60,170 bases of DNA from an archaeon (GCA_043815245.1 JBDRJD010000028.1:1-60170), one strand, 5' to 3'; positions 9,176-33,628 are shown, numbered from the stretch's first letter. Program-made: numbers and translations. The notes: generated from the letters alone by a model not told the origin.

Positions 9176-9176
9176 T

Positions 9177-9810: not shown

Positions 9811-10392
9811 ATGAAAATCCCGGTTTTAAAGGGTGAGAAGCGTAGAAAAGCCAGGAGAAAACACTTCCGCACTGAAGTAAGAGAGGTTGCTATTTATAGA
9901 GCTTTTAAGGAGAATGTTTCTAATCCTAAGTCTGTTTTTTATCCTGCTTGCGGGTGGAATATAAGCCCCTCAAAAGTTTTTGAAAATATAACTTTTGTGG
10001 ATCCTAATCCAAATGTGTTCGCTATACTGAAAACTTGCGGATTTGATGCATTTTGGGGATGTATCCAAAACTATGTTCCTGAAGAAGAGCATGATTTACT
10101 TATTTTGCAAGGATTTTACACAGGATTAATAAAAGAAACTTTACGTTTTGTGCCTGAAGAAGGTTATATTCTTCTGGGACCTCTTTATTCAAATTCATTA
10201 GGTTTATCGGGGAGCATGTATGAAGAGGCTAAGATAATCCAATCTACAAAAAGATTTTCATGTTATGGGGAGATTAATTTTGTTGAGCGAAAAAATAAAG
10301 ATAGTAGTGAGGTTACTTTTACAAGAAACTTAGAAGGAAAGTTAGCTGGAACTTCAAAGAGTCATAGATGTAGAAAAAAAAATAGGTGCTGA
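9811..10392 (+). CDS. Hypothetical protein (possible methyltransferase-like fold; possibly frameshifted 3' end)
   Basis: VFYPACG...ITFVDPN resembles a SAM-binding motif I region. TATA box 23 nt upstream of the ATG. Confidence 0.5.
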   Translation: MKIPVLKGEKRRKARRKHFRTEVREVAIYRAFKENVSNPKSVFYPACGWNISPSKVFENITFVDPNPNVFAILKTCGFDAFWGCIQNYVPEEEHDLLILQGFYTGLIKETLRFVPEEGYILLGPLYSNSLGLSGSMYEEAKIIQSTKRFSCYGEINFVERKNKDSSEVTFTRNLEGKLAGTSKSHRCRKKNRC

Positions 10393-10427
10393 CTGGTATA
10401 TATTTAAAAGAGATTAGCAAAGATCAA

Positions 10428-10570
10428 AAAGTTTCAAGAGTTTATCCCCAAGGAATGACTTTTTGAAACTTTAGGATGCATGAAAATTCTGTTAAAGAAT
10501 TTTCTGCCCCGAAAATTTATTAAATTTTCGCTGCTCGGAAATGTTTTCTGGCACTTTACATTTCTGACAT
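10428..10570. repeat. Four-hairpin structured element, copy 1
   Basis: Stems AAAGTTTCAA/TTGAAACTTT, GAAAATTCT/AGAATTTTC, CGAAAATTT/AAATTTTCG and GAAATGT/ACATTTC. Linkers are shared with 23905-24035. Confidence 0.7.
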
Positions 10571-10603
10571 AAGCTTTAAAAATACTAAATAATAGTAATA
10601 TTT

Positions 10604-10981
10604 ATGGATTCGCGTAAAAGAGTATTTTTGACAGTGGTGGGTTTAACAGTTTTAGTTCTGGCTTTTTATTTTGTGGCAATGAATATTACAAAGTATACTG
10701 GATATGTGGCGATTACTGAGAAAGAGGATTATGATAGTTTTGCGCAGTGCTTAACAGATCAGGGAGTGATAATGTATGGGAGTGAGTTATGCGGGCACTG
10801 TAAAAATCAAAAAGAGACATTTGGAGAGTCGTTCAAGTATGTAACTTATGTTGAATGTACTGAACAACCAGAAGCTTGTGCTGGTTTAAGAGGCGTGCCG
10901 GCATGGGATATTAATGGAGAAATAATTTACGGAGAGCAATCTTTAGAGAAATTAGCTGAATTAGCTGGATGTGACTTATAA
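10604..10981 (+). CDS. Membrane-anchored thioredoxin-fold protein (CGHC)
   Basis: N-terminal TM, YG..CGHC..QK..FG, YVEC, GVPAW. Confidence 0.7.
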   Translation: MDSRKRVFLTVVGLTVLVLAFYFVAMNITKYTGYVAITEKEDYDSFAQCLTDQGVIMYGSELCGHCKNQKETFGESFKYVTYVECTEQPEACAGLRGVPAWDINGEIIYGEQSLEKLAELAGCDL

Positions 10982-18957: not shown

Positions 18958-20721
18958 TTATAGCGGGAGTTGGGTTATTGTAATATCTGTTTCATAGGTT
19001 CCTGGCTCTAGGTTTACTGGCGGCAAGATATGGAAGTAGGTGTCTAGGGTTTCATCTAAACTTGAACTATCGCAAGTCATCCTATCGCAAACATCTAGTC
19101 CGCCTGATGGGTAGAATTCTCTGACAAAGGCTGTTTCTGGAATTGTGATAGGGAAAAAGCCGGTTTCTGTAGACTCACCTTGAAGATTATCATCATCTAA
19201 TTCAAATTCTGGATTAGAAGTTATATCCCAACAAGTAGTATTACTTGGAGAGCAATCAGAGGGGGCTCCTAATCCAAAGTCAGTTGCTTCCCAAGTTAAA
19301 TTGAGTAATACGTTTCCTGAATTGTTTGCTACTGCTAAACAGCTACCTGGATTCCAAGAGCCTAGTTGGATATCGTTACCACCACAAGTGCTTGGATCAC
19401 CTAGGTCTACTGAAGATGAGTAGAAAATATCTGGGAGAGAACCGTATGTCCAATTAGCATTAAAAATTGTAGTGGAAGCGCCAGCCTGGCTACTTGCATT
19501 TACATGAATCTTGTAATCTCCTGGGGATCTGAAAAATTCTACTGAGTTTGCATTTCCCTGGGCAATATCAACAGTAAAATTACAAAATTCATTTGAGGCT
19601 GCTGAATATGATAAGGTAAAGGAATAGTTTGCATTTGTAGGAAGACAAGTTACTGAGCCTGCTGCATCTACTAAACATAGGTCTGCGCCAGCAGCGTGTG
19701 TTGGAAAGCCGCCACAGTCTCTATCAGAATCATTAAACCGATAGGTTATATGGATTGGGGCATAAGTTCCAGCTGCTGGGTTTACAAAGCAGTTTTGCAC
19801 AAAGCCGGTACAGGAAAGTTCATTTGCTGAAACATCTGAAAGATAGACGTCAACAAACTGGGGTAGGTGATCTACTAATTCGAATGTTGAGTCATTATTT
19901 GAAGAATTTATCATAAAGTTATCTGTTGTCCAGATTCTTGCGTATGCTGTTGTGCGGGCGTCTAATGCTCCGGGAGTTCCCCAAGGTATTGGATTGGTGA
20001 CAGTTGCTTGAGGTGAAGAGGCAGCAGGGTCTGCTAGATAGGAATTGTCAGTAAAAGCAGTTCCGACTTGAACGTGGTACGTAAGAGTGTCTGCTGGCCA
20101 GTGATCTTGGCTGCCATCATCTAAGTCTATTGCTGTCCAGTTAATATCTGGTGTTTGATCATGAGTTTCTAACGGTACAAAGCTATGAGGATTAGTAGGA
20201 ACCTGGTTTAGTAAAGTAAAATTATACTGGTTAATTGAAGAGTTTGAAGGAACTCTATCATCTTCTGCATAAAGATCTACGTAGAATAATTTTGAGCATA
20301 AACCAGAGATAAAGTTACAATCTGTGTCGTTTAAATAAATAGTATTAGAAACACCCGGGCCTGCTGGATCTGTTCCGTAGGTGTAACTTTGAGGTGAGTT
20401 TCTCGGAGAAGGGCCAATTGTATAATTTGCAATTGTACAAGCATTATTAGAGTAAGGATTTGGTGTTGTGCCAATACAGATAGTTGTTGTAATTTGGTCT
20501 GGGTTTGGGTCGCGCACTCTCCAACGTATTTCCGTTGTTAAATCATGCGTGGTAAGTACTGTGTCATCCCAGTGAGTGTTGCTATCTCTAACCTCATAAT
20601 CAGAAGTATAGGGCGGTTCGTTAGCAACTTGAAATCTTCCACGTGATGTTTGTTGTGATAAAACTAGATAAGAAAACATAATAATCAGTATAATGCTTGC
20701 AATAATCACCGTCCTTTTCAT
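18958..20721 (-). CDS. Secreted beta-rich protein with C-terminal WxL/fimbrial-like domain
   Basis: Signal peptide, no TM anchor. C-terminal ~190 aa are paralogous to 20766..22787 and end in PGTYETDITIT. TATA box 23 nt upstream. Confidence 0.6.
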   Translation of the reverse strand: MKRTVIIASIILIIMFSYLVLSQQTSRGRFQVANEPPYTSDYEVRDSNTHWDDTVLTTHDLTTEIRWRVRDPNPDQITTTICIGTTPNPYSNNACTIANYTIGPSPRNSPQSYTYGTDPAGPGVSNTIYLNDTDCNFISGLCSKLFYVDLYAEDDRVPSNSSINQYNFTLLNQVPTNPHSFVPLETHDQTPDINWTAIDLDDGSQDHWPADTLTYHVQVGTAFTDNSYLADPAASSPQATVTNPIPWGTPGALDARTTAYARIWTTDNFMINSSNNDSTFELVDHLPQFVDVYLSDVSANELSCTGFVQNCFVNPAAGTYAPIHITYRFNDSDRDCGGFPTHAAGADLCLVDAAGSVTCLPTNANYSFTLSYSAASNEFCNFTVDIAQGNANSVEFFRSPGDYKIHVNASSQAGASTTIFNANWTYGSLPDIFYSSSVDLGDPSTCGGNDIQLGSWNPGSCLAVANNSGNVLLNLTWEATDFGLGAPSDCSPSNTTCWDITSNPEFELDDDNLQGESTETGFFPITIPETAFVREFYPSGGLDVCDRMTCDSSSLDETLDTYFHILPPVNLEPGTYETDITITQLPL

Positions 20722-20765
20722 GTTATATGTTTGTAAATCTATTATTTAAATATTTCTATTATTGA

Positions 20766-22787
20766 TTATGAAGGAATAAGGATGTTAATTTGTACGGCAC
20801 CTTCATAAGTTCCCTCTGGGAGCTCTGGAATTTTCATATTGTAGTAAGTTTTAAAACGCTCTCCAATTGAGTTATTGCATTTATCTGATATGCAAGTTCT
20901 TAGATAGGGGTATGGGGAAAAATAAGCAACACTATAGTTTGTAAGATAGGCTGGGTAGACTCCTGTTTCTGTTGTTTCATTAAAGAAAGGATCATCATCA
21001 ACCTGGAAAACCGGATCTGGCCAGGAAATATCCCATCTTCCGGAACATAAGAGGGGGGAGACACACTGGAAGTTCTGGCCTTGCCAAGTGAGATTTACCC
21101 CTATATTTCCCTGGTTAACTAAATCAACGCCGCCCGTAGGGCGAGAAGTGACCCATTGATTTGCCACTAAGTTTCCAAAATCAATCAGGTCAGTATAATT
21201 AATTGCTGTGAGGGTATTGTATGTGAAGTTTGTTTGATTTGAAACTGTGCCTGCTAGCTCAACTCTTACAATCCAAGTTCCGGGTTTTCTAAAGAACTGC
21301 ATTGCATCTGTTCCTTGGTATTGATAGAAGCAGTTTCTATTTGAAATGCGGTATTGATATGTTAAAGGAACTAGATAAGTATAATTTGTTGAGTTGCAGA
21401 CTGTTTGCTGTTGAGTTGCGACAGTCCGAGTTAGCCTGCCTTGTGAAGAGAAGACGAGATAATCAACTTCTTCTGCTGCATGATTTCTTTCTGAGTCGCT
21501 ACACTGGTCTTCGTCTATTGCAAGGTTAATTACAGAGGTTATTGGAGAAGAGCCAAATAAATAAGCCCAGCCGCCATTGCCTCCATTCATTGCTACTTGA
21601 CTTGCAACTCCAACTGAGAATGTAGAGGATAAAGAGCAAGGATATGGGGGGGAGTTGTCTATTCCCCGGATAGTATTACCTGTGCGGCCAGCTTCATAAT
21701 CCAGATTACCGATTGTTCCTGTACCTTGCTCAAATACTATATAACCCATGGTTTCATTTTTTCTTACTCGATTTGGATCTTCAGCTACATGTTTTCCAGT
21801 GTAAAGATTAGATGTTGGCGGATCTGCTTGGTTTCCATTTGAGCACCAGAACGAGCTCCAGTTTGTATCATTGTAAGACATTACTTGTCCGATTACTCTT
21901 GGATTGGCATAACTTTGTGAAAATCCGGTATTAACCGGGGTCCAGTCGCCACTTCGGTCTGTTTGAGTGGAAGTGTAAGTGAAGGCTTCGAGTTTAGTGC
22001 CATCTTCTAAATTGTACGCTCCTTTTTCTATGATTAGACAGGTAACATCTGAAGAAGTTGGAGTGGTTAAATCGCAGGGATTTTGAATTTTCAAATCAAA
22101 ACTTGAGCTGGTGATATTTTTAATTCTTGTTACTGCTGGGGGGTCTGTTGTAGAGGGGATATTATAAGTACAGACAATTACAGGAGAAGAGTATGAACCA
22201 AGGAGAGGCACGGTCTGCCAGTTTCCTCCAACATTTGAAATTTTCCTGATTTCTCCAAAAGATAATACAGAAGAGCCTGTAACGGGCTCACAGAGATATG
22301 CAGATAGTTGATACCGTGTGCACTGCTGCGCAAAAAGAACTGAATTAATAGTAATATTGGAATTAGTTCCTGCAATGGGATTAACAATATAGTCTTGGGG
22401 ATTTTCTAAATCTGAGATGTATGTATTATAAATCTGCCATGATTCTGGGGGGGCGAGAACATCAAAAAAATCAAACTCCCAGTCATCAATTCGATAATCA
22501 AAAGTTGCAATGTAGTATTGGCCTTCAAAGTTAGAAGGAATGATATAATCAATAAGGGTAGGTCTTGTAGTGCAAGGATTTGAACAGTCTGTGTTAATTG
22601 TGTCTACAACCGTGGAGTTTTTCATCACATAAAGTATTGGGTAGAATCCGTAATTCCTGTTAGGGCGAATAACAATTCTTAAATCCTGTCCAGAGTAAAG
22701 TTCTGTTGGAGAGATAGTGGTTATTGCAGATACAGTTTCAATTAAGAAAATCATTATTATAAACAAAATAATACATCTCTTTAACAT
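20766..22787 (-). CDS. Secreted protein with H-type-lectin-like repeats and the same C-terminal domain
   Basis: SY.SPVIVCT...DPPAV.RI.NITSSSFDL; second repeat Y.NP.VIGQV; C-terminus EGTYEGAVQINI. Confidence 0.6.
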   Translation of the reverse strand: MLKRCIILFIIMIFLIETVSAITTISPTELYSGQDLRIVIRPNRNYGFYPILYVMKNSTVVDTINTDCSNPCTTRPTLIDYIIPSNFEGQYYIATFDYRIDDWEFDFFDVLAPPESWQIYNTYISDLENPQDYIVNPIAGTNSNITINSVLFAQQCTRYQLSAYLCEPVTGSSVLSFGEIRKISNVGGNWQTVPLLGSYSSPVIVCTYNIPSTTDPPAVTRIKNITSSSFDLKIQNPCDLTTPTSSDVTCLIIEKGAYNLEDGTKLEAFTYTSTQTDRSGDWTPVNTGFSQSYANPRVIGQVMSYNDTNWSSFWCSNGNQADPPTSNLYTGKHVAEDPNRVRKNETMGYIVFEQGTGTIGNLDYEAGRTGNTIRGIDNSPPYPCSLSSTFSVGVASQVAMNGGNGGWAYLFGSSPITSVINLAIDEDQCSDSERNHAAEEVDYLVFSSQGRLTRTVATQQQTVCNSTNYTYLVPLTYQYRISNRNCFYQYQGTDAMQFFRKPGTWIVRVELAGTVSNQTNFTYNTLTAINYTDLIDFGNLVANQWVTSRPTGGVDLVNQGNIGVNLTWQGQNFQCVSPLLCSGRWDISWPDPVFQVDDDPFFNETTETGVYPAYLTNYSVAYFSPYPYLRTCISDKCNNSIGERFKTYYNMKIPELPEGTYEGAVQINILIPS

Positions 22788-23218
22788 GGTTCTAGATCGT
22801 TATAGCTAGGAGAGTTGTCGTAGCAAAGCTGGCCTCCTTGCTGTAATCTTGGGATGATGTAAAATTCGGTAATTGGCTTGTTATATGCAACATAAACCGT
22901 TTTCTGTTCATAAGCTCCAATAACAGTTCTTGGGGGAGTGGGAATTTTTTCTGAAGTTCCGTCTTGATAGTTAAATAAAAAAAGTAAAAAATCCCCAATA
23001 GCAGGAGCCTTGTTATTTTTTACCTCCACTTGGAGGACATTATTAGTATAGCAGGCTGATAAAATTGTCACGTCTACATCTTGAAGGCAGGAAAATTTTT
23101 CTCCTTCTTCATATATATTGAAGTTCTTTATAATTAGAAGTAAGGCAAGAGATGCAGTGACTACAATTAGAATTAGTAGTACAATTATGACTAAGTTTGC
23201 GTTCCCTCTTTTTCTCAT
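22781..23218 (-). CDS. Pilin-like protein with class III signal peptide
   Basis: MRKRG/NANLVIIVLLILIVV; paired Cys (C..V.V.I..AC) and a terminal Cys pair. Confidence 0.55.
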   Translation of the reverse strand: MRKRGNANLVIIVLLILIVVTASLALLLIIKNFNIYEEGEKFSCLQDVDVTILSACYTNNVLQVEVKNNKAPAIGDFLLFLFNYQDGTSEKIPTPPRTVIGAYEQKTVYVAYNKPITEFYIIPRLQQGGQLCYDNSPSYNDLEPC

Positions 23219-23904: not shown

Positions 23905-24035
23905 AGAAGTCCGTGAGTGTTTTTGGACTTCTGGATGCGAGAAAATTCCTTACAAATTGGGAATTTTCTGCACAGAAAATCTCACGATTTTCTTGTGCTC
24001 AGAAAAATCTGCCAATGTAACAGTTTTTCTGACAT
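23905..24035. repeat. Four-hairpin structured element, copy 2 (nrdR 5' region)
   Basis: Stems AGAAGTCC/GGACTTCT, AGAAAATTCC/GGAATTTTCT, GCACAGAAAATC/GATTTTC(T)TGTGC and TCAGAAAAA/TTTTTCTGA. Confidence 0.7.
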
Positions 24036-24036
24036 T

Positions 24037-24558
24037 ATGATGCTATGCCCTTACTGTGGGAAGAAAGAAACAAAAGTTACTGACAAAAGAGATGTTGAGG
24101 GAGTTGTAAGAAGAAGACGTGAATGTTTAAAGTGTAAGAGGAGATTTACAACTTATGAAAGATTTGAACTCAGTAAGTTTTATATTATAAAGAAAGATAA
24201 AAGAAGAGAGACGTATAACCGGGAGAAGTTGTTATCAGGCATGGTTAAGGCTTGTGAAAAAAGGCCTGTAAGCCATGATAAGATTGAGAAGGCTGTTAAT
24301 GAAATTGAAGAAAAGATAAGGAAGAAAAAAGAAGTAAAAAGTGAGATAATAGGTGAAATGGTTATGAATAAGCTAAAGAGGTTGGATAAGGTTGCTTATA
24401 TCCGATTTGCATCAGTTTATAAGGATTTTAAAGATATTGATGACTTTAGAAATGTCGTGAAGGACATTTCTAAGAGCTCTCAAAAATCTAAAGATTTTCG
24501 AAGTTTTGAAAATATGGTAAAAGAGGTCAACCTTTCAAAAAGGTTGCCAAAGAGATAG
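24037..24558 (+). CDS. nrdR: Transcriptional repressor NrdR with C-terminal hairpin-encoded extension
   Basis: CPYC...RRRRECLKC..RFTTYE, ATP cone, LDKVAYIRFASVY. The track's N-terminal extension from 23917 is the repeat element. Confidence 0.93.
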   Translation: MMLCPYCGKKETKVTDKRDVEGVVRRRRECLKCKRRFTTYERFELSKFYIIKKDKRRETYNREKLLSGMVKACEKRPVSHDKIEKAVNEIEEKIRKKKEVKSEIIGEMVMNKLKRLDKVAYIRFASVYKDFKDIDDFRNVVKDISKSSQKSKDFRSFENMVKEVNLSKRLPKR

Positions 24559-24561
24559 AAG

Positions 24562-26907
24562 ATGGTTGAAAGCAGGACAGATAAGGTCATGGAAAAGATT
24601 GAGATTGATGATTTTAGTTTGAAAGATAGAAGCAAGTTGAATTTTTGGCTTTCAATGGTTGAGAAGTACGATTTTGACAAAGTTATTTCTATTTGTTTAA
24701 GGGCTGGAACTACTCCTGAAATTGCAGAGAGAATTGCTAGGGAGATTGATTCTAATTTAGAAGAAGAAGATAAACATGTTGTTCCAATGTCAGAAGTAAG
24801 GCGGTTAATCTTTGCTTTACTATACAAGTATGATTGGGCTGCTGCAAAGAGATTTAGGACAGATGATGTTTTTATTAGAACTAGTTCTGAGAAATTTGAG
24901 GTTTTTGACAGAGCTAAAATCTCTAGAAGCTTGATTAAGGAAACTGAGATTGCTGAAGAGCAGGCAGATGGAATTGCTATGGAAGTTGAGAAGTTTGTAA
25001 AAAACTTGAACCTTACTTATATCTCTTCACCTTTAATAAGGGAGACTGTTAATGTAAAACTACTGGAGTATGGTTTAGAAGATGCTAGGAAAAGGTACAC
25101 GAGAGTAGGTATGCCAATTTATGATGTGGGTGAGATGATTTCTAAAGGGATGGCTACAGATATTAAAAGAGAAAATGCTAATTTACAGCATACTCCAGAG
25201 ACAATTAACTGGATTATATCAGGGGAGACACTAGAACAATATGCGATGATGAAGTTGTTTCCGCAGAACTTAATTGACTCACACCTTTCTGGAGATTATC
25301 ATATCCATATCTTGTCAAATGCAGCTACGCGTCCAAATTGTATTCAACATGTTCCTGCTTTGTTTTTTAAGGATGGATTAAAGGCAGATGGAACTGGAAT
25401 GCACACTTCAATTGCCGGGCCTGCAAAGCATTTATCTGTGGCTATTCAGCATTGTGCTAAGATTCTTTTAGCTTCGCAAACGCAAATGGCGGGGGGGCAG
25501 TCAATTGATTGTTTTAATGTATGGCTTGCTCCTTTTGTAAGGGGGCTAAGTGATGAGGCAGTAAGGCAGGCTGCGCAGGAGTTTATTTATGAGTTAAACC
25601 AGAGTTATGTTGCAAGAGGGGGGCAGGTAGTTTTCAGCAATATTTGTTGGGAGTTTGGAATTCCTGAGTTCTTAAAGAATGTTCCGGCTGTAGGGCCAAA
25701 TGGAAAAATCATGGGGGTTTATGGAGATTATGAAGAAGAAAGTTTGAGGCTGTTAAGAGAGTATACTAAGATGAAGATTAAGGGAGATCATGTGGGAAAG
25801 CAGCATATGTGGCCTAATGATGTTTACAAGATAAGGAAGGAGACTTTTAACAAATATCCTGAAGAAGTAAGATTAGTTCATGAGTTTATGGCTAAGTATG
25901 GAACCCCTTATATTGGGAACGGTATGCCTGAGTGGCAAACTGAGAACTTTAATTACATGGGATGCAGAACTAGACTAGATTCTGCTTATGCAGGGCCGTG
26001 GGGGAGTTTGAGGACAGGAAATGATATTTACATCACTTTGAATCTTCCGAGGCTGGCTTATGAAGCAAAGGGCAATGATACTAAGTTTATGGATCTATTA
26101 GATAGGAGATTAAAGAAGATGGAAGAAATCCTTCTGATAAAGCACAATATTACAGATGATTTGTTGCACAGACAAAACTTGCTAAAGTTTCTAACTCAGA
26201 AATTTGATGGGGAAGAATACTATCAGTTTATGAATACTACTAAATCTTTTGGCTATGCGGGGCTTACAGAGTCAGTTAAATATCATACTGGAAGTCACCT
26301 TCATGAAAGTGAAGATGCTGTGAATTTTGGTGTTAAAGTGATTAAGAGGATGAGAGAGTATGCAAATGACTGCACAAAAGAGCATAAACTAAGATTTTCT
26401 GTAATTGCATCTCCTGCAGAGACTTGTGCTGCGAGACTTGCGAGAATTGATATTGGCAAGTTTGGAAGGTCTGTTATTTTCGCGGGAACTAAAGAAGCGC
26501 CATATTATACAAATAGTCATATGGCCAGGATGGATGCAAATATTCCTTTAGGACATAAGCTGAATATTGAACAAAACTTTCACCCGCTTTCAAATGGAGG
26601 GCATATCACTCATATCTGGCTTGGGGAACAGTCCCCTTCTGTGGACAGTTTAACTGAGATGACTAAAAAAATTTGTAAAAAAGATATTGGGTTTTTTGCT
26701 TATACAAAGGATTATAGTGTCTGCAATGATTGTGCTAGCTTTCAATATGGATTAAAGACCACTTGTAATAATTGTTCTTCAAGTAATTTGAGTAGGTATA
26801 GTAGGATTACAGGATATTACCAGAGAGTGGAAGGGTGGAATGCAAGCAAGAAGCAGGAATTAAAAGATAGATTTAGATATACTTCTGGTAATTGTGCTTG
26901 TGATTAG
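24562..26907 (+). CDS. nrdD: Anaerobic (class III) ribonucleoside-triphosphate reductase
   Basis: ATP cone(s), AGGQS.D.FN, YMGCRT thiyl loop, TLNLPR, YYTNS, CxxC...CxxC, glycyl-radical YSRITGYY. Confidence 0.95.
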   Translation: MVESRTDKVMEKIEIDDFSLKDRSKLNFWLSMVEKYDFDKVISICLRAGTTPEIAERIAREIDSNLEEEDKHVVPMSEVRRLIFALLYKYDWAAAKRFRTDDVFIRTSSEKFEVFDRAKISRSLIKETEIAEEQADGIAMEVEKFVKNLNLTYISSPLIRETVNVKLLEYGLEDARKRYTRVGMPIYDVGEMISKGMATDIKRENANLQHTPETINWIISGETLEQYAMMKLFPQNLIDSHLSGDYHIHILSNAATRPNCIQHVPALFFKDGLKADGTGMHTSIAGPAKHLSVAIQHCAKILLASQTQMAGGQSIDCFNVWLAPFVRGLSDEAVRQAAQEFIYELNQSYVARGGQVVFSNICWEFGIPEFLKNVPAVGPNGKIMGVYGDYEEESLRLLREYTKMKIKGDHVGKQHMWPNDVYKIRKETFNKYPEEVRLVHEFMAKYGTPYIGNGMPEWQTENFNYMGCRTRLDSAYAGPWGSLRTGNDIYITLNLPRLAYEAKGNDTKFMDLLDRRLKKMEEILLIKHNITDDLLHRQNLLKFLTQKFDGEEYYQFMNTTKSFGYAGLTESVKYHTGSHLHESEDAVNFGVKVIKRMREYANDCTKEHKLRFSVIASPAETCAARLARIDIGKFGRSVIFAGTKEAPYYTNSHMARMDANIPLGHKLNIEQNFHPLSNGGHITHIWLGEQSPSVDSLTEMTKKICKKDIGFFAYTKDYSVCNDCASFQYGLKTTCNNCSSSNLSRYSRITGYYQRVEGWNASKKQELKDRFRYTSGNCACD

Positions 26908-27048
26908 TGGGGATAATTTTAAGTATGTAAAAAGATAAATTTTTATTAGAAAGATGGACACCAATATCTTAAGTAATGTTCTTGAAGTATACAAAAAAAG
27001 CAGTTTAAACCTTAATAACCGGAGGAGGTACTATAATCTGATCCAAAC

Positions 27049-27756
27049 ATGGCAGTAAAAGATAATATAAAGGGATTTGTTCCTACGTCGCTAGTTGACT
27101 GGGATGGAAAGGTTTCTGCAGTTATTTTTCTTCCAGGATGTAATTTTAGGTGCAGTTTTTGCAGTAATCCGGATTTAGTTGTAAATACAGATAATATTAA
27201 GACAATTCCCTTTCAGGAAGTTAAAAAAGTTTTAGAAAATAATAATGAATTTATTGATGGGGTGGTAATTACCGGGGGAGAGCCTACAATTTTTTCTGAT
27301 TTTCCAGATTTTTGCCAGAAAATTAAAGAAATGGGGTTTAAAGTGAAGATTGACACAAATGGGACTAATCCCGAGATGTTAAAAGAGTTATTAGATAAAG
27401 AAGTTGTGGATTTTGCTGCAATGGATGTTAAGACTGACTTCGACAAGTATAAAGAAGTTGTAAATGCTGAAGTGGATCTTGAGAAGATAAAAAATTCAAT
27501 AGAATTAATTAAGCAGTTTCCAGAGTATGAATTTAGGATCACTATGTTTCCTAAAATAAGTAAAGAAGATTTAATTAAAGCTGCAGATTATTTAAAAGAA
27601 AAAGGCGCTAAGACTCTGATAATTCAACAGTTTAGAAATGATACTTGCTTGGATAAAGCAGCTGAGGATGTTAAACCTTATTCTGAGGAGCAGTTGAAGG
27701 AAATGAAAGCTGCTGTTGAAACTGGGTTTGAGAAGTGTGTATTGAGAAATGCTTAA
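27049..27756 (+). CDS. nrdG: Class III RNR activating radical SAM enzyme
   Basis: S.VDW.GKV..VIF.PGCNFRCSFC.N, ITGGEP, DTNG, AMDVK. Confidence 0.9.
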   Translation: MAVKDNIKGFVPTSLVDWDGKVSAVIFLPGCNFRCSFCSNPDLVVNTDNIKTIPFQEVKKVLENNNEFIDGVVITGGEPTIFSDFPDFCQKIKEMGFKVKIDTNGTNPEMLKELLDKEVVDFAAMDVKTDFDKYKEVVNAEVDLEKIKNSIELIKQFPEYEFRITMFPKISKEDLIKAADYLKEKGAKTLIIQQFRNDTCLDKAAEDVKPYSEEQLKEMKAAVETGFEKCVLRNA

Positions 27757-27805: not shown

Positions 27806-28903
27806 CTAACATTCAACTAAATTTAAACTAGACTCTCTTTCTAAATAAAGTCTAGCAAGTTTTTCAACTTGAGAAAGATATCTAGGAGAAATATCTTCAA
27901 CTTCTTCAATGGCATAACTGCCTTCTTCAACTCTTGCCCAAACTGGTTTATCAAGCAGTCCGGCAGCTATGTCATGTTCATCCCATGGATGATCTGCAAT
28001 TAGTTCTAATTTTTGCAAAATAGAGTCATAAGGTTCTGTTAAAATGTTTCCAACAAGCTCTCTTTTACTTTCAGAAAACCAGGAGTAAAAAGAAACATCG
28101 CCGTTATTTTCTAGAAATGTATAGGGGTGGTTATGGAAAGGGGGGTCTCTTATTCCTACAAACTGAATTCTAGAATCTTCTTTTTCTAGCATTTTTTCTT
28201 CTGCAAGAAGAAAGTATGCATATAAGCAATCTGAATAACCTTTTTCTGGGTTGCCAGTAGGAGAGATGGCAATTACTTTTTTATATCTTTCAAATAGTTC
28301 TAATTTTTGTTTTTTATTTTTTGCCTTATCAGCTTGTTTTAAAACTCGCATTCTTGCAAGATCATAGTTAAATTCGTAAATTCTCCAGTAATCAAAATCG
28401 GTTTTCTCAAGCTTTTTGAAAAGCTTGGGCATTTCTTTAGAATTTAAGGCAGTGAAAACAGTATGCCAGCCTAGTTGCATTCCATTGTCTTTAATTGCCT
28501 TTGCAAGTTCAGGAAGTTGTTCATAAGTGCTTACAAATTGTCTGCTTCTAAGAGTTTCTTGTATTCCTAGAGTGGTTGAGTCAATTGGAAGTGCAATGTC
28601 GTCTACAAATCTAGCAAGAGTTTCAATTTTTTTGGAAGTTAAAAGAAGTCCGTTAGTGTGATAACTTATTTTGGTTCTGCCTTGGTGAAGAATTTTTAAT
28701 GCAGAATCTAAATCTTTAACTAGAGAAGGATCTCCGCCGCCGATTGTGACTTTTTTTACGCCAGATTCAGCTAGAATCCCGGCCAGTTTTACAAGTTGTT
28801 CTCTGTCTTCTGAAGTCTGCGTGTCAGGCTTAAAGCAATAGATGCAGTTATCATTACAGCGAGAAGTTACAAACCAGTGTATGTGCTGTCCATAGCTTTC
28901 CAT
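27806..28903 (-). CDS. Viperin-like radical SAM protein
   Basis: HWFVTSRCNDNCIYCF, VTIGGGDP, HTNG, ALPIDS, HTV...N, YWRIYEF, YTFLENNG. ATG 28903 is coupled to the dcd stop (TAAAATG). Confidence 0.7.
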   Translation of the reverse strand: MESYGQHIHWFVTSRCNDNCIYCFKPDTQTSEDREQLVKLAGILAESGVKKVTIGGGDPSLVKDLDSALKILHQGRTKISYHTNGLLLTSKKIETLARFVDDIALPIDSTTLGIQETLRSRQFVSTYEQLPELAKAIKDNGMQLGWHTVFTALNSKEMPKLFKKLEKTDFDYWRIYEFNYDLARMRVLKQADKAKNKKQKLELFERYKKVIAISPTGNPEKGYSDCLYAYFLLAEEKMLEKEDSRIQFVGIRDPPFHNHPYTFLENNGDVSFYSWFSESKRELVGNILTEPYDSILQKLELIADHPWDEHDIAAGLLDKPVWARVEEGSYAIEEVEDISPRYLSQVEKLARLYLERESSLNLVEC

Positions 28904-28904
28904 T

Positions 28905-30848
28905 TTAACTAGATGGAGGGGCGAGCCAGGAAATTTGATCAAGGGGAAGAGTTCTCTCAATAGTCCCAGGCATATCTCCAATATCGTGGTATTCGGAAGA
29001 TTTAGTTGCAGCGTAAATTGCATCAAGTTGAGGAATTAAAGTACGAGTCCAGGTTTCAACATTATACTCCGAATCTTTTAAAACTCCCCTTAACTTGTTC
29101 AGAGACATCATTTCCCACCAAGCAATTGAATCTTCTCTTGGAGTAATCTTACCATTAACATGTATTGCATAAATCAGACCAAAGTGCACTCTATCTACGG
29201 GTTGATCTCGTATGAACATTGTTCCGTATAAGTGCGGTCGAGTTACCTGGCCTGAAACTCTAACTTCTTCTTCAAGAACTTCTCTTCTGATATTGTTTAA
29301 GACAAAGTTAGGCTGTTCTGTATCTCTACTTCTGTCTTCAATTCTTATATGCCCCCCAAGAGCTATTGAAAACTTATCAAATAGCCTTTTATCTCCATAT
29401 AGTTTGTAGTCTTTTGCTCTTACATAGGAAAAAACCTTCTTGTCTTGATCAAACATTACTACATATGGGATTACCTGCAGGACGGACTCATCATCTTCAC
29501 AGTCATATCTTGAGTGGAAAAAAGGATTGCCTTCTATTAGTTCCAGAAGTCTTGGAAGAGTTTCTGGGTGCACTGGTTCAAGACCTTCAGGATAAGTTCT
29601 TAAATCATGGAATTTTTTTGCATCTTCAACTAAGACAATTCTGGAGAGGGCGTCTACATTTTTTCCAGCAATATCGAAGTCAAGTCCTTGGAAATATTTT
29701 GCTGTTTTAGGGCCTTTTTGAAATTGATAGTGGGAGCCTACTTCTCCGTAAACTTTGTCTGGAGTGGTAGTCCTAAATAGAACAATGTCACTTATCGCCA
29801 TGCCGTCATCGATTTCTGCATCTTGTGTGGGTATAATCTCAAAAACTAGATCACCTATAAATCCAGGGTCTATAAATCCTGCAAAATGTAATCTTCCCCT
29901 AAGACCTACGTCTGCATGTGCCCTAAGTACTGCGTTTAAGTGAGGGGGGATATTAAGTACTTCTTTAGAAGCAATAAGGTAGTGCTCCCCTTCTTTAAAG
30001 GTTAGCTTTCCCTCTAAATCAGATTTGAGCGGTTCAAAATAATCTTCTGCTCTACGCGCAAACTTTGCACCAAGATCTACTGGTTCAGGATTTTGTCTTG
30101 CTCTTAGTGCGCACACTCCTTTGGTGTATTGCCCTAAAGTGTCAAGATGTAGCTGAACTGCTGATTCCTCGGTGAGTCTTGGTGAGTTAATAGGTAGTGC
30201 TGCCCACCCCATTTCAGGAGTTGCTTCCCAGAGTAATGGAGTTGATTCATTTTCTTTTAAAATTTCTTTGCTTGTTAACATAGAATCAATTCCTTGATAG
30301 AATCTTAGCTGGTTTAATGCGAGTCCTGGACGGATGATATGATTAAATGCAAGAGGTTGAAGTAAAAGCCAGAGTTGCAAGTGTTCTGAGTTAGGGCCTG
30401 GCTCTGAAATCTCGTCATAACAGCCTTGGTAATCTGCAAGTAACCTTGTATCAAGAAAAACTCTTCCTGTAGAGCTTTTGGGAGATGATTTTACTAGCTT
30501 AATTTGAGGGCCTAGTTGTATTCTTTCTTCTAAAGGGGCAAGGTAGGTAAACCCTTTTTTTATTTCATACCCCTCAGAAATATCAACTTGTTCTCTTCTT
30601 TTTTTAGGCAACTCGAGAAGAGATCTCCATACTGTTTTTCCTTTCTCCGGTTTCCAAAGGCCTTCTTCTGGGTCTAGACGGTAAATTGTGTCTCCTATTA
30701 TAGGGTCACAGGAAGCTGGCTGAATACGCGTGTCGGAGATTAGGGAGGGTTTAGTCCTAGTTGCTTCTGAAGATGGAATCTGCAAAACTCCGGATTCAAT
30801 TAGTCCTCTAATTTCTTGATAAGCTAAGCAAGATCCCCTTTCTGTCAT
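28905..30848 (-). CDS. dcd: Long-form (two-domain) dCTP deaminase fused to a COG4112/YmaB-like NUDIX hydrolase
   Basis: IQPAS.D, PKSSTGR, HFAGFIDPGF, GSHYQ.Q; C-terminal R...E.D...LQVIPY, S+ALGGHI, RE..EE, VHFG.IY, ETW. Confidence 0.82.
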   Translation of the reverse strand: MTERGSCLAYQEIRGLIESGVLQIPSSEATRTKPSLISDTRIQPASCDPIIGDTIYRLDPEEGLWKPEKGKTVWRSLLELPKKRREQVDISEGYEIKKGFTYLAPLEERIQLGPQIKLVKSSPKSSTGRVFLDTRLLADYQGCYDEISEPGPNSEHLQLWLLLQPLAFNHIIRPGLALNQLRFYQGIDSMLTSKEILKENESTPLLWEATPEMGWAALPINSPRLTEESAVQLHLDTLGQYTKGVCALRARQNPEPVDLGAKFARRAEDYFEPLKSDLEGKLTFKEGEHYLIASKEVLNIPPHLNAVLRAHADVGLRGRLHFAGFIDPGFIGDLVFEIIPTQDAEIDDGMAISDIVLFRTTTPDKVYGEVGSHYQFQKGPKTAKYFQGLDFDIAGKNVDALSRIVLVEDAKKFHDLRTYPEGLEPVHPETLPRLLELIEGNPFFHSRYDCEDDESVLQVIPYVVMFDQDKKVFSYVRAKDYKLYGDKRLFDKFSIALGGHIRIEDRSRDTEQPNFVLNNIRREVLEEEVRVSGQVTRPHLYGTMFIRDQPVDRVHFGLIYAIHVNGKITPREDSIAWWEMMSLNKLRGVLKDSEYNVETWTRTLIPQLDAIYAATKSSEYHDIGDMPGTIERTLPLDQISWLAPPSS

Positions 30849-30901: not shown

Positions 30902-31522
30902 TTACAAGGATAGTCTTTGCTTTGCTTCGTATCTTATTCTATCCTGCATTCCATCAATATCTCCGTGGGCATAAGGAAGGACAAAAAAAATATCTGAGTT
31001 TAATTCTGCAATTTCTCTGTATCCTTTACAAACTCTCTGATGAAATTCAATTGCTTCGCTTTCAAATCTGTCTGCACCTGCGTTTTTTAATCCAACTTCA
31101 GGATCAAGGTCTATAAGAATTGCTAAATCAGGGCGCATTCCAAAAGTTACTTTTTCATTTAGGGTGCGGATATAATTTAGATCCATGCCCCTTCCATAAC
31201 CTTGATAAGCTTCAGAAGCGTATCTTCCTCTATCTTGGAGGATAATTCTTCCAGCGTTTCGAGCCGGTATAATGAGGCCTGCATAAATGTCTGCTCTTGC
31301 AGCTTCAAACAAGAGTAATTCTGCTAGGGGATCATGGAGTTCTGTTTCAGGAGATAATAGTATTCGTCTTATTGCTTCTCCAGCAGATGTTGCTCCGGGT
31401 TCTCTTGCTGTAAGGGGATTATAACCTTTCTCTCTTAACCATTCTTCAAATAAACTAATCTGAGTAGTTTTGCCGCAGCCCTCGCCGCCTTCAAACATAA
31501 TTAGCTTGCCTTTTTCTGACAT
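30902..31522 (-). CDS. tmk: Thymidylate (dTMP) kinase
   Basis: FEGGEGCGKTTQ, REPG, LLFEAAR, DR...S..AYQGYGRG, PDL. Confidence 0.92.
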   Translation of the reverse strand: MSEKGKLIMFEGGEGCGKTTQISLFEEWLREKGYNPLTAREPGATSAGEAIRRILLSPETELHDPLAELLLFEAARADIYAGLIIPARNAGRIILQDRGRYASEAYQGYGRGMDLNYIRTLNEKVTFGMRPDLAILIDLDPEVGLKNAGADRFESEAIEFHQRVCKGYREIAELNSDIFFVLPYAHGDIDGMQDRIRYEAKQRLSL

Positions 31523-31531: not shown

Positions 31532-32704
31532 TTAAACTACTCTTGTTAGACCATTTGCTGGCCCCCAAACACAAGGAGAATCACAGCCTGTAGATTCAAT
31601 CTTGCACCTTGAAGTTGCGTTTGCAGCAATTTCTGGGCGAACTGATCCATACATTTCAGCAACAGCTTGGGTATTTTTCATTATTTCGTATTGAGCATGC
31701 CCGCAAAGGCGTTGGCGCATTTTTGAAATGTAATGCCTTGGAGTTCCGGTTTCATTTACTTTTAAAAACTGAGCTTGGGGAAAATCAGAGGTTGCAACTT
31801 CTTCTAAGTCTCCAGTCCACTCTCGAACTAGAGATCTATCCGGAAGTATAATTCCTGGAATAAAGAAACCAAGAGGAGCTCCTGGCTGATGTCCTCCAGA
31901 GATATGATAATCAATAGTTCTATGACGGTGAGCTTGTGCAAGTCCTGCAAAGCTCATTAGGTAATTAATTGCATAGGTATCTGCAAAATGCGGTGCAACT
32001 GTATGGGGTTGAAATAAACTGAGATGATGCTCTATTTTACTTGTTAAGTCAGCTTCTCTAAATTTTGCAATATCCTCTTGAGCAATAAATGCCTCAAAAC
32101 AATCTGCAAGCCTTGAAAACATTGGATTTCCGGACTGCCTATATTCTGGAATTAGAGCTTCCATTTCGTGAGCGATAAAATTAAGTTGTCTTAAGCTGAG
32201 AGTGTGAGTCATTTTTGTTGGAGTGAAAACAGAAGTCATGTAACGCGCGTTTTCTTGAACTAACTTTTTAATTGCAACTTGTCTATCTTCTGAATTACCC
32301 ATTGCAGGATAGACTGCACCAATTAAAGGAGTTAGCCGGTCCATCCACTTGTCATAAAGTGCATTTTGAACTGGCTCAATATCCTCCATTCTAGTATACC
32401 TAGCTGATTTTTCTGAAGTAGCCATGTCTTGCTCGTTATTAAGGACCATTGCCATAATCTTTGGGAGGCCTTGCATGTAAAAGCTAAGAGTTGTGTGTTC
32501 AAACGGGCTATGATGCCCAGATGTAAGTAAGCGGTCCATTAGAGCTGCTTTATCTTGCTCATTTTGCACGACTACAAAGTCTTTATCAGTATAACAGACT
32601 CTTGCATTATCTCTTCCAAATTTCAACATTGGTTCAAGATTTCTCCAGCCTTCTGTTGCCCCTATTAACTCAATTCTCATGGCTGCACCATCTTTTTCTG
32701 CCAT
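31532..32704 (-). CDS. thyX: Flavin-dependent thymidylate synthase, tandem ThyX domains
   Basis: GHHSPFEH, SEKSARY, Q.NARY..., second-domain AQAHRHR. ATG 32704 lies 23 nt below the TATA at 32728-33. Confidence 0.8.
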   Translation of the reverse strand: MAEKDGAAMRIELIGATEGWRNLEPMLKFGRDNARVCYTDKDFVVVQNEQDKAALMDRLLTSGHHSPFEHTTLSFYMQGLPKIMAMVLNNEQDMATSEKSARYTRMEDIEPVQNALYDKWMDRLTPLIGAVYPAMGNSEDRQVAIKKLVQENARYMTSVFTPTKMTHTLSLRQLNFIAHEMEALIPEYRQSGNPMFSRLADCFEAFIAQEDIAKFREADLTSKIEHHLSLFQPHTVAPHFADTYAINYLMSFAGLAQAHRHRTIDYHISGGHQPGAPLGFFIPGIILPDRSLVREWTGDLEEVATSDFPQAQFLKVNETGTPRHYISKMRQRLCGHAQYEIMKNTQAVAEMYGSVRPEIAANATSRCKIESTGCDSPCVWGPANGLTRVV

Positions 32705-32844
32705 ACTCAAATCCAGGATCAGAACTTTATAAAGAAGGTTGCAACAGAAAGTATATTTTGAAAAATACTATTGAGAAATAGTTAAGTTTAAATAAGACTT
32801 CAGGATAGTTTTGATATGCAAGAATTGAAGAGGTGTGAAGGAAA

Positions 32845-33178: not shown

Positions 33179-33628
33179 ATGGGAACAGGCTCTGGAAATG
33201 TGGATGTTGATGAAACAACTGAAATTATGAGGCGAGCTTTTAAAGTAAAGCCGGTTTTACAAGACTTAAGAGCTAGGCTTACTGAAGTAGTTTCTAAGCT
33301 AAATAAAAAAAGGCCGTTGAGAGAGAGATTACATAGAAGAACTTACGACTTGGAGACAGATGACGGAAATTTTTTAATTATCCGATCTGCACCCTTGCCT
33401 TATGGACCTGCAGCAGCATGGGGCTATAGGAAGGATCCAAAAACAGTAGCAAAAATTAATGTAGTGGAAAAACTAGAATCTGGAGATAAACTGCCTTCGC
33501 TAAGTTTAGAGGGGTATATTGAAGGGGGTTGGTGGGGTGCAGAAAGGATTGGGAGGGTGGTTAGTTATTTGCATGAAAAGCATAATATTCCAATTGGTGA
33601 TCTGGCAGAATATCTTCTTAGAGGATAG
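33179..33628 (+). CDS. Hypothetical protein
   Basis: 149-aa ORF abutting the trxA stop. Confidence 0.5.
   Translation: MGTGSGNVDVDETTEIMRRAFKVKPVLQDLRARLTEVVSKLNKKRPLRERLHRRTYDLETDDGNFLIIRSAPLPYGPAAAWGYRKDPKTVAKINVVEKLESGDKLPSLSLEGYIEGGWWGAERIGRVVSYLHEKHNIPIGDLAEYLLRG

What the first reader, a model, noticed from the sequence alone, without database searches (positions are those of the whole stretch)
27806..28903. Radical SAM protein with viperin-order motifs but altered substrate residues
Seen: HWFVTSRCNDNCIYCF / VTIGGGDP / HTNG / ALPIDS / HTVFTALN / YWRIYEF / YTFLENNG. These parallel viperin NYHFTRQCNYKCGFCF / INFSGGEP / SNG / AISCDS / NSVINRFN / RWKVFQ / YLILDE, and there is no SPASM Cys cluster. 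The viperin N-x-H is replaced by H-W-F and GGEP by GGDP. There is a basic insertion (KQADKAKNKKQK) and an acidic ~60-aa C-terminal extension. Inference: a viperin-related subfamily with a different substrate.
Basis: partly seen in the sequence, partly recalled or inferred. Interest (0 to 1): 0.7.

Follow-up and report, generated by a model that had tools for sequence, protein, structure and literature searches.

The report
Orphan viperin-like radical SAM enzyme family
This gene encodes an intact iron-sulfur radical enzyme from a rare, undescribed family found only in ultra-small symbiotic archaea and bacteria; it is built like the antiviral enzyme viperin and keeps viperin's catalytic tyrosine, but its substrate pocket differs and its substrate is unknown.

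Summary
Window 27806-28903 (minus strand) encodes a 365-aa radical SAM protein. Every quoted motif is at the stated place. It has only one Fe-S cluster motif, no SPASM cysteines and an acidic helical C-terminal extension.

- Viperin is the best hit by family HMMs, by PDB sequence search and by fold search. The scores are far below the family cut-off (70.6 against 180 bits).
- Only residues 8-175 match viperin, and the core matches MoaA about as well.
- In ML trees the protein belongs to its own strongly supported clade (98/99), outside the viperin clade (100/100).
- Its closest relatives are uncharacterised 260-300-aa radical SAM proteins.
- Of the residues invariant in 11 true viperins, the family keeps W246, K247 (as R/K), F277 and the catalytic Y302. 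It replaces N77, H79, N122, K220, N222 and E293, and shifts R194 by one position. It has three invariant histidines of its own.

The family is rare: about 60 clusters, and about 1% of genomes in the phylum. It is patchy, occurs in DPANN archaea and in two CPR-labelled bacterial contigs, and is absent from viral contigs. In 45 contexts it has no conserved neighbour. Its tight coupling here to the housekeeping ThyX-Tmk-DCD operon is unique to this genome.

The most likely function is viperin-type radical chemistry on a small anionic metabolite. The substrate is unproven.

The parts
27806..28903 (-). Radical SAM gene: 365 codons plus TAG stop. It belongs to an undescribed stand-alone family.
   Evidence: Translation; PF04055 at 63.5 bits; full-length homologues; AF2 model with mean pLDDT 89.2.
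28835..28858 (-). CX3CX2C motif (C16, C20, C23) that binds the radical SAM [4Fe-4S] cluster.
   Evidence: C20 and C23 are invariant and C16 nearly invariant in 27 family members. All three align to viperin C84/C88/C91.
28370..28885 (-). Partial (beta-alpha)6 barrel core, residues 7-178. It carries the family-specific invariants H9, W10, H82, H147, Y172, W173, R174, Y176 and E177.
   Evidence: The secondary structure of the model shows strands alternating with helices. This is the only part that aligns to viperin and MoaA profiles. Conservation is shown.
28169..28369 (-). Helical insertion, residues 179-245, which includes the variable basic stretch KQADKAKNKKQK.
   Evidence: The model has helices at 180-193, 197-212 and 227-239. 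This region is gapped and variable in the family alignment and absent from P0065-type members and from the 280-aa sister group.
28007..28168 (-). Beta-hairpin region without cysteines, residues 246-299. It contains the invariant Y261 (codon 28121-28123), which is equivalent to viperin Tyr302.
   Evidence: Y261 is Y in 75 of 75 family rows and aligns to Y302, which is invariant in 11 viperins; MoaA has R at this column. The region aligns to the sister group in hhalign.
27809..28006 (-). Conserved acidic helical C-terminal extension, residues 300-365, with P320, W322, R324, G328, E333 and E334.
   Evidence: Conservation; pI 4.3; helices in the model. It has no counterpart in viperin, MoaA or the 280-aa sister group.
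28905..30848 (-). Upstream gene, abutting the radical SAM gene: a two-domain dCTP deaminase fused to a TM1382-like Nudix-type domain.
   Evidence: PF06559, PF22769 and PF22569; the C-terminal domain matches PDB 3e57 at E = 4e-13 and phrog_8902; its stop TAA lies 1 nt before ATG 28903.
30902..31522 (-). Thymidylate kinase, same operon.
   Evidence: TIGR00041 at 134 bits, above its cut-off. It is the only Tmk match in the genome.
31532..32710 (-). Long ThyX-type thymidylate synthase (392 aa), first gene of the operon.
   Evidence: PF02511 at 71.7 bits. It is the only ThyX match in the genome.
27049..27756 (+). NrdG activase, last gene of a convergent NrdR-NrdD-NrdG operon. It ends 49 nt from the radical SAM stop codon.

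Best explanation
The gene encodes a functional radical SAM enzyme with a single [4Fe-4S] cluster. It belongs to a distinct, undescribed family confined to ultra-small symbionts: DPANN archaea and a few contigs labelled as CPR bacteria. The family branches from the same radiation as viperin, MoaA and several uncharacterised 260-300-aa radical SAM proteins. It shares viperin's architecture: a partial barrel, no auxiliary cluster, the W-(K/R) motif on strand 6, and the tyrosine that in viperin is thought to deliver an electron and proton to the substrate radical. I infer that it works as a stand-alone enzyme. Reductive cleavage of SAM would give a 5'-deoxyadenosyl radical. That radical would abstract a hydrogen from a small anionic metabolite, and the substrate radical would be resolved with help from Y261, as in a viperin-type dehydration or a related redox-neutral or reductive rearrangement. 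The pocket differs from viperin's triphosphate pocket. The basic residues K220 and R245 are lost. Three invariant histidines (H9, H82, H147) and extra tyrosines (Y172, Y176) are gained. A conserved acidic C-terminal lid is added. The substrate is therefore probably not an NTP. My best guess is a nucleotide-like compound with fewer phosphates, such as a pyrimidine (deoxy)nucleoside mono- or diphosphate or a nucleotide sugar. Shown here: family membership, conservation, fold, residue pattern, distribution and context. Inferred: the chemistry and the substrate class.
For: The protein is intact and well conserved, with about 60 representative clusters and 35 invariant columns. The model is confident, with pLDDT 89 and pTM 0.88. 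Viperin is the best match by NCBIfam (1.2e-19), PADLOC pVip (5e-23), PDB sequence search (profile against T. virens viperin-like enzyme, 1.2e-18) and Foldseek (8.5e-12, TM 0.74 on the target). The family aligns over 257 columns with a 280-aa group (E = 4.6e-56) that itself aligns full-length with viperin (E = 8e-31). W246, K247, F277 and Y302 of viperin are kept in 75, 70, 66 and 75 of 75 rows; MoaA lacks the W and the Y. A role for the active-site Tyr in proton-coupled electron transfer is described in PMC8124187. An AU test does not reject a family-plus-viperin clade (p = 0.71). The proteins are acidic, median pI 5.6, which argues against a nucleic-acid substrate. There are weak hints of a nucleotide link. 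In this genome the gene starts 1 nt after the stop codon of the DCD-Nudix gene in the ThyX-Tmk-DCD operon, which suggests translational coupling. In G442 a member lies two genes after a cytidine/dCMP deaminase. A Nudix gene lies within 7 genes in 6 of 45 loci.
Against: There is no biochemical evidence. No neighbour is conserved in 45 contexts, and none of this window's operon partners recurs next to another member, so the nucleotide link rests on one or two loci. The core is as similar to MoaA as to eukaryotic viperin. SuiB, anSME and SkfB follow viperin closely in Foldseek. The careful tree places the family in an unresolved basal polytomy, not next to viperin. I could not inspect the model's coordinates, so the pocket description comes from alignment to viperin, not from geometry. 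The list of viperin's triphosphate ligands is partly from my own knowledge (Fenwick et al. 2020, not held here). The library confirms only S124, K220, N222 and K247 as pocket residues (PMC11970327).
Confidence: 0.35

Rival explanations
1. It is a stand-alone radical SAM enzyme for a non-nucleotide small molecule, such as a sugar, a lipid head-group, or a cofactor or its precursor. On this reading the resemblance to viperin reflects only shared ancestry of the scaffold.
For: No nucleotide-metabolism neighbour is conserved. The viperin-invariant nucleotide ligands N77, H79, N122, K220 and N222 are all replaced. Related small radical SAM genes in neighbouring genomes sit in unrelated clusters, next to aaRS-like paralogues in G039 and in a sugar-modification cluster in G001. 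DesII and BlsE, which act on sugar moieties, are among the fold hits.
Against: A stand-alone gene in genomes of about 1 Mb that lack most biosynthetic pathways needs a ubiquitous substrate, and nucleotides fit that best. Three basic pocket positions are retained (K51, R119, R174). The gene is tightly coupled to the dTTP operon in this genome.
Confidence: 0.3
2. It is a true antiviral effector of the prokaryotic-viperin kind. It would convert a (deoxy)nucleotide into a chain-terminating analogue during virus infection.
For: The distribution is patchy: 1 of 61 close relatives and about 1% of 401 genomes in the phylum, similar to viperin's distribution (bioRxiv 10.1101/2023.09.13.557418). Members occur in both DPANN archaea and contigs labelled CPR, which suggests horizontal transfer. 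The gene stands alone, as do kinase-free pVips. The best HMM hits are pVip models. A few loci lie near toxin-antitoxin genes.
Against: It scores far below the viperin threshold and falls outside the viperin clade. It lacks most viperin-invariant substrate residues. The 131 neighbours within two genes are a housekeeping mix with no defence-island signal. In this genome it is the last gene of the only dTTP-synthesis operon, and the 1-nt gap to the upstream gene suggests they are expressed together. That would be risky for a chain-terminator synthase.
Confidence: 0.12
3. It modifies a protein or peptide, as a maturase or repair enzyme, like the SPASM-type relatives SkfB, SuiB and anSME.
For: These enzymes are close in Foldseek and in the PDB profile search. 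The acidic C-terminal domain could dock a basic protein. PCMT, a protein-repair methyltransferase, is a neighbour in 3 of 44 loci.
Against: There is no auxiliary cluster and there are no SPASM cysteines. No small ORF or partner protein is conserved next to the gene. There is no RiPP recognition element: Pfam finds only the radical SAM core.
Confidence: 0.1
4. It repairs or modifies DNA or RNA, as spore photoproduct lyase or tRNA-modifying radical SAM enzymes do.
For: Several loci lie near replication genes: MCM, PolB, PolD and FEN1.
Against: The proteins are acidic, median pI 5.6, with an extension of pI 4.3. There is no nucleic-acid-binding domain. The distribution is too patchy for a housekeeping modification. 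The MCM neighbours come from one syntenic lineage.
Confidence: 0.05

Closest known systems
Viperin / prokaryotic viperins (RSAD2, pVip; NCBIfam NF038283; PDB 5VSL, 6Q2P, 7N7I, 9DFN)
   Same: Both have a partial-barrel radical SAM fold with one cluster and no auxiliary cluster. The order of motifs is the same. The W-(K/R) motif on strand 6, F277 and the catalytic Tyr302 equivalent (Y261) are conserved. Viperin is the best hit in every library searched. Both have a patchy distribution and can occur as stand-alone genes.
   Different: The score is 70.6 bits against a cut-off of 180, and only residues 8-175 match. The protein falls outside the viperin clade. N77, H79, N122, K220, N222 and E293 are replaced and R194 is shifted by one position. 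It has about 30 extra residues of helical insertion and a 65-residue acidic C-terminal extension. Its gene neighbourhoods are not defence-like.
Uncharacterised 260-300-aa radical SAM proteins (alignment A2; annotated only as 'MoaA/NifB/PqqE/SkfB family')
   Same: These are the closest relatives by profile comparison (E = 4.6e-56 over 257 columns). They share the x-W start of strand 1, L-P-x-D, the W on strand 6, and the Y-F-x-I...G-N hairpin.
   Different: They lack the helical insertion and the C-terminal extension. They are basic proteins (median pI 8.7). Part of this group is closer to viperin than the target family is. None has a known function.
MoaA (GTP 3',8-cyclase; PDB 1TV7)
   Same: The radical SAM core is as similar as viperin's (hhalign E = 1e-16 over 169 columns). 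MoaA is the usual outgroup for viperin.
   Different: MoaA has a C-terminal second [4Fe-4S] cluster on three cysteines and GTP-binding arginines. The target has no such cysteines and scores 52.8 bits against a cut-off of 325. MoaA has R where the target and viperin have the catalytic Tyr.
SPASM/twitch radical SAM enzymes (anSME, SkfB, SuiB, PqqE)
   Same: The core fold is similar, and the beta-hairpin after the barrel is retained (Foldseek E about 1e-10).
   Different: The target has no auxiliary-cluster cysteines and no peptide-recognition domain.

Membership tests
Radical SAM superfamily (PF04055) | CX3CX2C cluster motif and a core that scores above the Pfam gathering threshold | tested here: met
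   63.5 bits against 29.5. C20 and C23 are invariant and C16 nearly invariant in the family.
Viperin / pVip | Score above the curated family HMM cut-off (NF038283, 180 bits) over the full length | tested here: not met
   70.6 bits, matching residues 8-175 only. The PADLOC pVip models give 79.9 and 78.4 bits on the same N-terminal part.
Viperin / pVip | Placement inside the viperin clade in a maximum-likelihood tree | tested here: not met
   The 8 pVips and 3 eukaryotic viperins form a clade with 100/100 support that excludes the family. The family has its own clade at 98/99. Viperin joins another uncharacterised group at 96/92. A sister relationship is not rejected by the AU test (p = 0.71).
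Viperin / pVip | The viperin-invariant pocket residues N77, H79, N122, R194, K220, N222 and K247 (mouse numbering) | tested here: not met
   In the family these positions read H, Y/F, T/I/V, G (with R one column earlier), G, H and R/K. Only K247 is conserved in kind.
Viperin / pVip | Catalytic tyrosine (Tyr302) after the barrel | tested here: met
   Y261 is Y in 75 of 75 family rows and aligns to Y302 in 11 of 11 viperins.
Viperin / pVip | Partial (beta-alpha)6 barrel closed by a C-terminal extension, with no auxiliary cluster | tested here: inconclusive
   Viperins are the top Foldseek hits (TM 0.74 on the target), but SuiB, anSME and SkfB are close behind. There are no extra conserved cysteines. 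The C-terminal extension is not homologous to viperin's. I could not inspect the coordinates.
Viperin / pVip | Makes 3'-deoxy-3',4'-didehydro-NTPs and protects against viruses | not testable with these tools
   This requires enzyme assays and phage challenge.
Viperin / pVip | Frequent linkage to a nucleotide kinase or to defence genes | tested here: not met
   The Tmk in this operon is the genome's only Tmk, so it is a housekeeping gene. No kinase recurs in the 44 other loci, and there is no defence signal among neighbours.
MoaA | Second [4Fe-4S] cluster on three C-terminal cysteines, and a score above the TIGR02668/TIGR02666 cut-offs | tested here: not met
   52.8 bits against 325 and 48.4 against 284. 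There are no C-terminal cysteine motifs.
SPASM/twitch radical SAM | Cysteine-rich auxiliary-cluster domain (PF13186) | tested here: not met
   There is no PF13186 hit. Outside the CX3CX2C motif there are only two cysteines, and neither is conserved.
NrdG-type activase | Score above the TIGR02495 cut-off | tested here: not met
   29.9 bits against 131. The genome's real NrdG is the convergent neighbour at 27049-27756.

The most novel reading that the evidence does not exclude
The family is a viperin-type radical dehydratase that has been retargeted from ribonucleoside triphosphates to pyrimidine deoxynucleotides with fewer phosphates, at the level of dUMP, dCMP, dTMP or dTDP. Its product would be a 3',4'-didehydro-dideoxy nucleotide. 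That product could act as a DNA-chain terminator against DNA viruses or rival cells, or could tune the dNTP pool of ultra-small symbionts. This would explain the gene's place at the end of the dTTP operon in this genome and next to a dCMP-type deaminase in another genome.
Probability: 0.07. Interest if true: 0.85.

Novelty: new variant of a known kind. Interest (0 to 1): 0.45.

Why it matters
Viperin is one of the few immune enzymes shared by all domains of life, and how far its scaffold has diversified is an open question. This family shows the scaffold with the catalytic tyrosine kept and the nucleotide pocket rebuilt: three invariant histidines, extra tyrosines and a new acidic lid. It occurs only in DPANN archaea and in contigs labelled as CPR bacteria, organisms with very little metabolism of their own. 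Finding its substrate would add a reaction to radical SAM chemistry. It could also reveal a metabolite that matters for the symbiotic lifestyle or for conflicts of these organisms. The report also guards against over-annotation, because automated pipelines could label this protein 'viperin-like/antiviral' from its best hit, and the evidence here does not justify that label.

Tried and rejected
1. Substitute for ribonucleotide reductase: rejected. All six family-bearing genomes examined have a conventional RNR, class III in this genome and class I/II in the others.

2. Conserved operon partner: none found. I clustered the neighbours of 45 loci. Only Nudix (6 loci, never adjacent in an operon) and a TatD-like hydrolase (4 loci, 3 of them one lineage) recur. 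None of the window's partners recurs.

3. Defence island: Pfam and PADLOC scans of 131 neighbours within two genes show a housekeeping mix.

4. Virus-encoded family: there is no member in IMG/VR, and the BFVD fold hits are generic radical SAM proteins.

5. Horizontal-transfer island in this genome: GC3 of the gene (0.24) is like that of its neighbours.

6. RiPP maturase: there are no SPASM cysteines and no conserved small ORF.

7. The sister group as a guide to function: its members sit in unrelated clusters.

8. Searching the protein collection with eukaryotic viperins to obtain pVips returned only animal viperins. I obtained pVips instead from annotated plasmids.

9. The papers that list viperin's CTP ligands were not in the library.

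11. No bona fide pVip was found in 401 genomes of the phylum.

Full report
WHAT IS THERE

The minus-strand ORF at 27806-28903 encodes 365 residues. The protein has five cysteines. Three form the CX3CX2C motif (C16, C20, C23). The other two (C226, C365) are not conserved, so an auxiliary SPASM or twitch cluster is excluded. Pfam finds only the radical SAM core (PF04055, 63.5 bits).

The longest ORF starts at a TTG at 29026, but the homologues begin at the position of ATG 28903. That ATG lies one base after the TAA of the upstream gene.

The window comes from a 0.92-Mb archaeal genome in 45 contigs, 85.7% complete. RNA polymerase subunits of archaeal type lie just downstream. The closest named homologues are from Nanoarchaeota and Aenigmarchaeota MAGs, so this is a DPANN archaeon.

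LOCAL CONTEXT

The gene is the last of four on the minus strand:
- a long ThyX (31532-32710);
- thymidylate kinase (30902-31522);
- a two-domain dCTP deaminase fused to a TM1382-like Nudix-type domain (28905-30848);
- the radical SAM gene.

An NrdR-NrdD-NrdG operon converges on it, and a thioredoxin gene diverges from ThyX. ThyX and Tmk are the only copies in the genome, so this is the housekeeping dTTP-supply operon and not an accessory cassette. GC3 of the radical SAM gene (0.24) matches its neighbours.

THE FAMILY

A word-indexed search of 5.8 billion proteins found about 30 full-length homologues at 36-47% identity. A profile search of 1.84 billion cluster representatives found about 60 with full-length or fragmentary family-level scores (about 190-490 bits). 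Below that, scores fall to 150 bits or less and only profile positions 1-180 match.

The 27-sequence alignment has 35 invariant and 30 nearly invariant columns. These include H9, W10, H82-T83-N84, P106, D108, Q115, H147, Y172-W173, Y176, N179, Y261, R281, G285-N286, G328 and E334. The C-terminal extension is conserved (P-L-W-A-R ... G-x-Y-x-x-E-E). The basic stretch is variable and is missing in some members. GGDP is unique to this protein; 74 of 75 rows have GGEP. Family proteins are acidic, with median pI 5.6 and an extension of pI 4.3.

DISTRIBUTION

- None of 60 genomes of the same genus, family or order has an orthologue. Their best hits are 87 bits or less on the core only, against 490 bits for this genome's own gene.
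- In 401 genomes spread over the phylum, three besides this one have a family-level match. Two more have a divergent form in which only the core matches.
- No genome of that sample has a viperin above the curated cut-off.
- Among species-representative genomes, the pattern scan recovered two full-length members. Both are on contigs labelled Patescibacteria or Saccharibacteria, and one has bacterial-type neighbours (RNase HII, a Mug-type glycosylase, an ABC transporter).
- No member was found in IMG/VR.

CONTEXT ELSEWHERE

I collected 45 loci from assemblies, genomes and metagenomes and clustered their neighbours.
- No partner is conserved.
- None of this window's partners (DCD-Nudix, Tmk, ThyX, NrdD, thioredoxin) occurs near any other member.
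- A Nudix gene lies within seven genes in 6 loci but never as an operon partner. A TatD-like hydrolase recurs in 4 loci, three of them one lineage.
- Only 4 of 38 loci have a same-strand upstream gene within 30 nt, so the gene usually has its own start.
- The 131 neighbours within two genes are a housekeeping mix (MCM, eRF1, PCMT, TBP, methyltransferases) with no defence-island signal.
- One variant, in G442, is 519 aa with a different C-terminal domain. It lies two genes after a cytidine/dCMP-type deaminase and a GNAT gene.

The coupling to the dTTP operon is therefore a peculiarity of this genome.

RELATION TO KNOWN FAMILIES

Viperin is the best hit everywhere:
- NCBIfam NF038283: E = 1.2e-19 and 70.6 bits, against a cut-off of 180 bits, on residues 8-175 only;
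- PADLOC pVip: 79.9 bits;
- PDB by sequence: T. virens viperin-like enzymes first, then SkfB and MoaA;
- Foldseek with a confident AF2 model (pLDDT 89.2): viperins first (E = 8.5e-12, TM 0.74 on the target), but SuiB, anSME, SkfB and MoaA are within one to three orders of magnitude.

Profile-profile comparison gives the following.
- Family against eukaryotic viperin: E = 5.8e-14, core only.
- Family against MoaA: E = 1.1e-16, core only.
- Family against a set of uncharacterised 260-300-aa radical SAM proteins (alignment A2): E = 4.6e-56 over 257 columns, including the post-barrel hairpin.
- A2 against viperin: E = 8.4e-31 over the full length.
- A2 against MoaA: E = 3.9e-22, core only.

I took eight PGAP-annotated pVips from plasmids, three crystallised eukaryotic viperins and MoaA, and built trees. 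In the careful tree:
- the family is a clade at 98/99;
- viperins are a clade at 100/100;
- viperins join part of A2 at 96/92;
- the family sits in an unresolved basal polytomy with MoaA and the rest of A2 (the quick tree agrees on the clades).

An AU test does not reject a family-plus-viperin grouping (p = 0.71). The family therefore belongs to the viperin/MoaA radiation. It is not a viperin, and its exact sister group is unresolved.

POCKET RESIDUES

I listed the columns that are invariant in the 11 true viperins and read them in 75 family rows.

Kept:
- W246 (75 of 75);
- K247, as R or K (70 of 75);
- F277 (66 of 75);
- Y302 (75 of 75).

MoaA lacks the W and has R in place of the Y.

Changed:
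- N77 to H;
- H79 to Y/F;
- N122 to T/I/V;
- G193-R194 to R-G;
- K220 to G;
- N222 to H;
- P243 to F;
- L252 to N;
- E293 to V.

PMC11970327 names S124, K220, N222 and K247 as pocket residues of mouse RSAD2. PMC8124187 describes the conserved active-site Tyr as the proposed proton-coupled electron-transfer residue. The wider list of CTP ligands is from my own knowledge of the 6Q2P work, which was not held in the library.

By homology, the family pocket has fewer basic side chains than viperin. It keeps K51 (mostly), R119 and R174. It adds three invariant histidines (H9, H82, H147) and tyrosines (Y172, Y176), plus a new acidic lid. I could not open the model's coordinates, so this description is an inference from alignment.

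HOW IT MOST LIKELY WORKS

What is shown: this is an intact, conserved, single-cluster radical SAM enzyme that stands alone.

What is inferred: SAM cleavage is followed by hydrogen abstraction from a small anionic metabolite, and the radical is resolved with Y261, as in viperin-type dehydration. The remodelled pocket argues against an NTP. A nucleotide-like compound with fewer phosphates is my best guess (confidence 0.35). That guess is supported only weakly, by this operon, the G442 locus and scattered Nudix neighbours.

Rivals:
- a non-nucleotide small molecule (0.30);
- a true antiviral pVip-like effector (0.12), favoured by patchiness and transfer between domains, but disfavoured by the housekeeping contexts, the lost viperin residues and the apparent co-expression with the only dTTP operon;
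- a protein or peptide substrate (0.10);
- a nucleic-acid substrate (0.05), disfavoured by the acidic pI.

The idea that it replaces ribonucleotide reductase is rejected, because all family-bearing genomes examined have an RNR.

EARLIER SCAN NOTES

Other notes report several different radical SAM families tied to Tmk and DCD genes in DPANN archaea. For this family I tested that idea, and the link is not conserved.

VERDICT

This is a new, well-defined radical SAM family of the viperin-like kind with a rebuilt pocket and an unknown substrate. Interest is moderate, and it should not be annotated as viperin or as antiviral.

Noticed in passing
window 28905-30848 (-): A two-domain dCTP deaminase (PF06559-type) is fused to a C-terminal domain of about 200 aa. 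That domain resembles T. maritima TM1382 (PDB 3e57, E = 4e-13) and phrog_8902, and by eye it has a Nudix-like box. The fusion could channel dCTP to dUTP to dUMP. It recurs at 46% identity in one genome of the same family (G013), where it carries one in-frame TAA. The C-terminal domain occurs alone, as proteins of 205-245 aa, in several relatives.
   Followed up: partly
window 31532-32710 (-): The ThyX is unusually long (392 aa). It scores below the TIGR02170 cut-off (56.8 against 87.9 bits), and its RHR motif lies far downstream of the N-terminal Thy1 match. It is the only thymidylate synthase match in the genome.
   Followed up: partly
window 23917-27756 (+): An NrdR-like repressor (zinc ribbon plus ATP-cone) directly precedes the class III RNR genes nrdD and nrdG in an archaeon. 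The listed ORF has an N-terminal extension, and the true start is probably an internal ATG just before the zinc ribbon (Pfam match from residue 42).
   Followed up: no
window 18958-22787 (-): Two tandem secreted proteins (587 and 673 aa), rich in Asn, Thr and Cys, share a C-terminal domain of about 270 aa (30% identity, E = 2e-19). They are probably paralogous surface proteins. A 145-aa protein with a signal-anchor-like N-terminus is encoded immediately upstream of them (22781-23218), overlapping the start of the 673-aa gene.
   Followed up: partly
L050 (DATKVM010000007.1) 5989-7020; L051 (CAYPSR010000048.1) 1244-2320: Full-length family members (38-40% identity) lie on contigs labelled Patescibacteria and Saccharibacteria. 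L050 has bacterial-type neighbours: RNase HII, a Mug-type glycosylase and an ABC transporter. This suggests transfer between DPANN archaea and CPR bacteria, or else mis-binning.
   Followed up: partly
L046 (G442:C2) 6298-10951: A family variant of 519 aa has its C-terminal extension replaced by an unrelated helical domain of about 220 aa. It follows, on the same strand, a thioredoxin-reductase-like gene, a probable glutamate dehydrogenase gene, a cytidine/dCMP deaminase gene and a GNAT gene.
   Followed up: partly
L138 (G039:C1) 3430-8337: A 258-aa radical SAM protein of the sister group is flanked by genes whose N-terminal sequences look like class I aminoacyl-tRNA synthetase paralogues and by a probable alcohol-dehydrogenase-type gene. 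This may be an aminoacyl-derived natural-product cluster. The assignments are by eye and no family search was run.
   Followed up: no
window 33179-33628 (+): A 149-aa ORF starts 1 nt after the thioredoxin gene and has no match in Pfam, NCBIfam, PHROGs or PADLOC.
   Followed up: no
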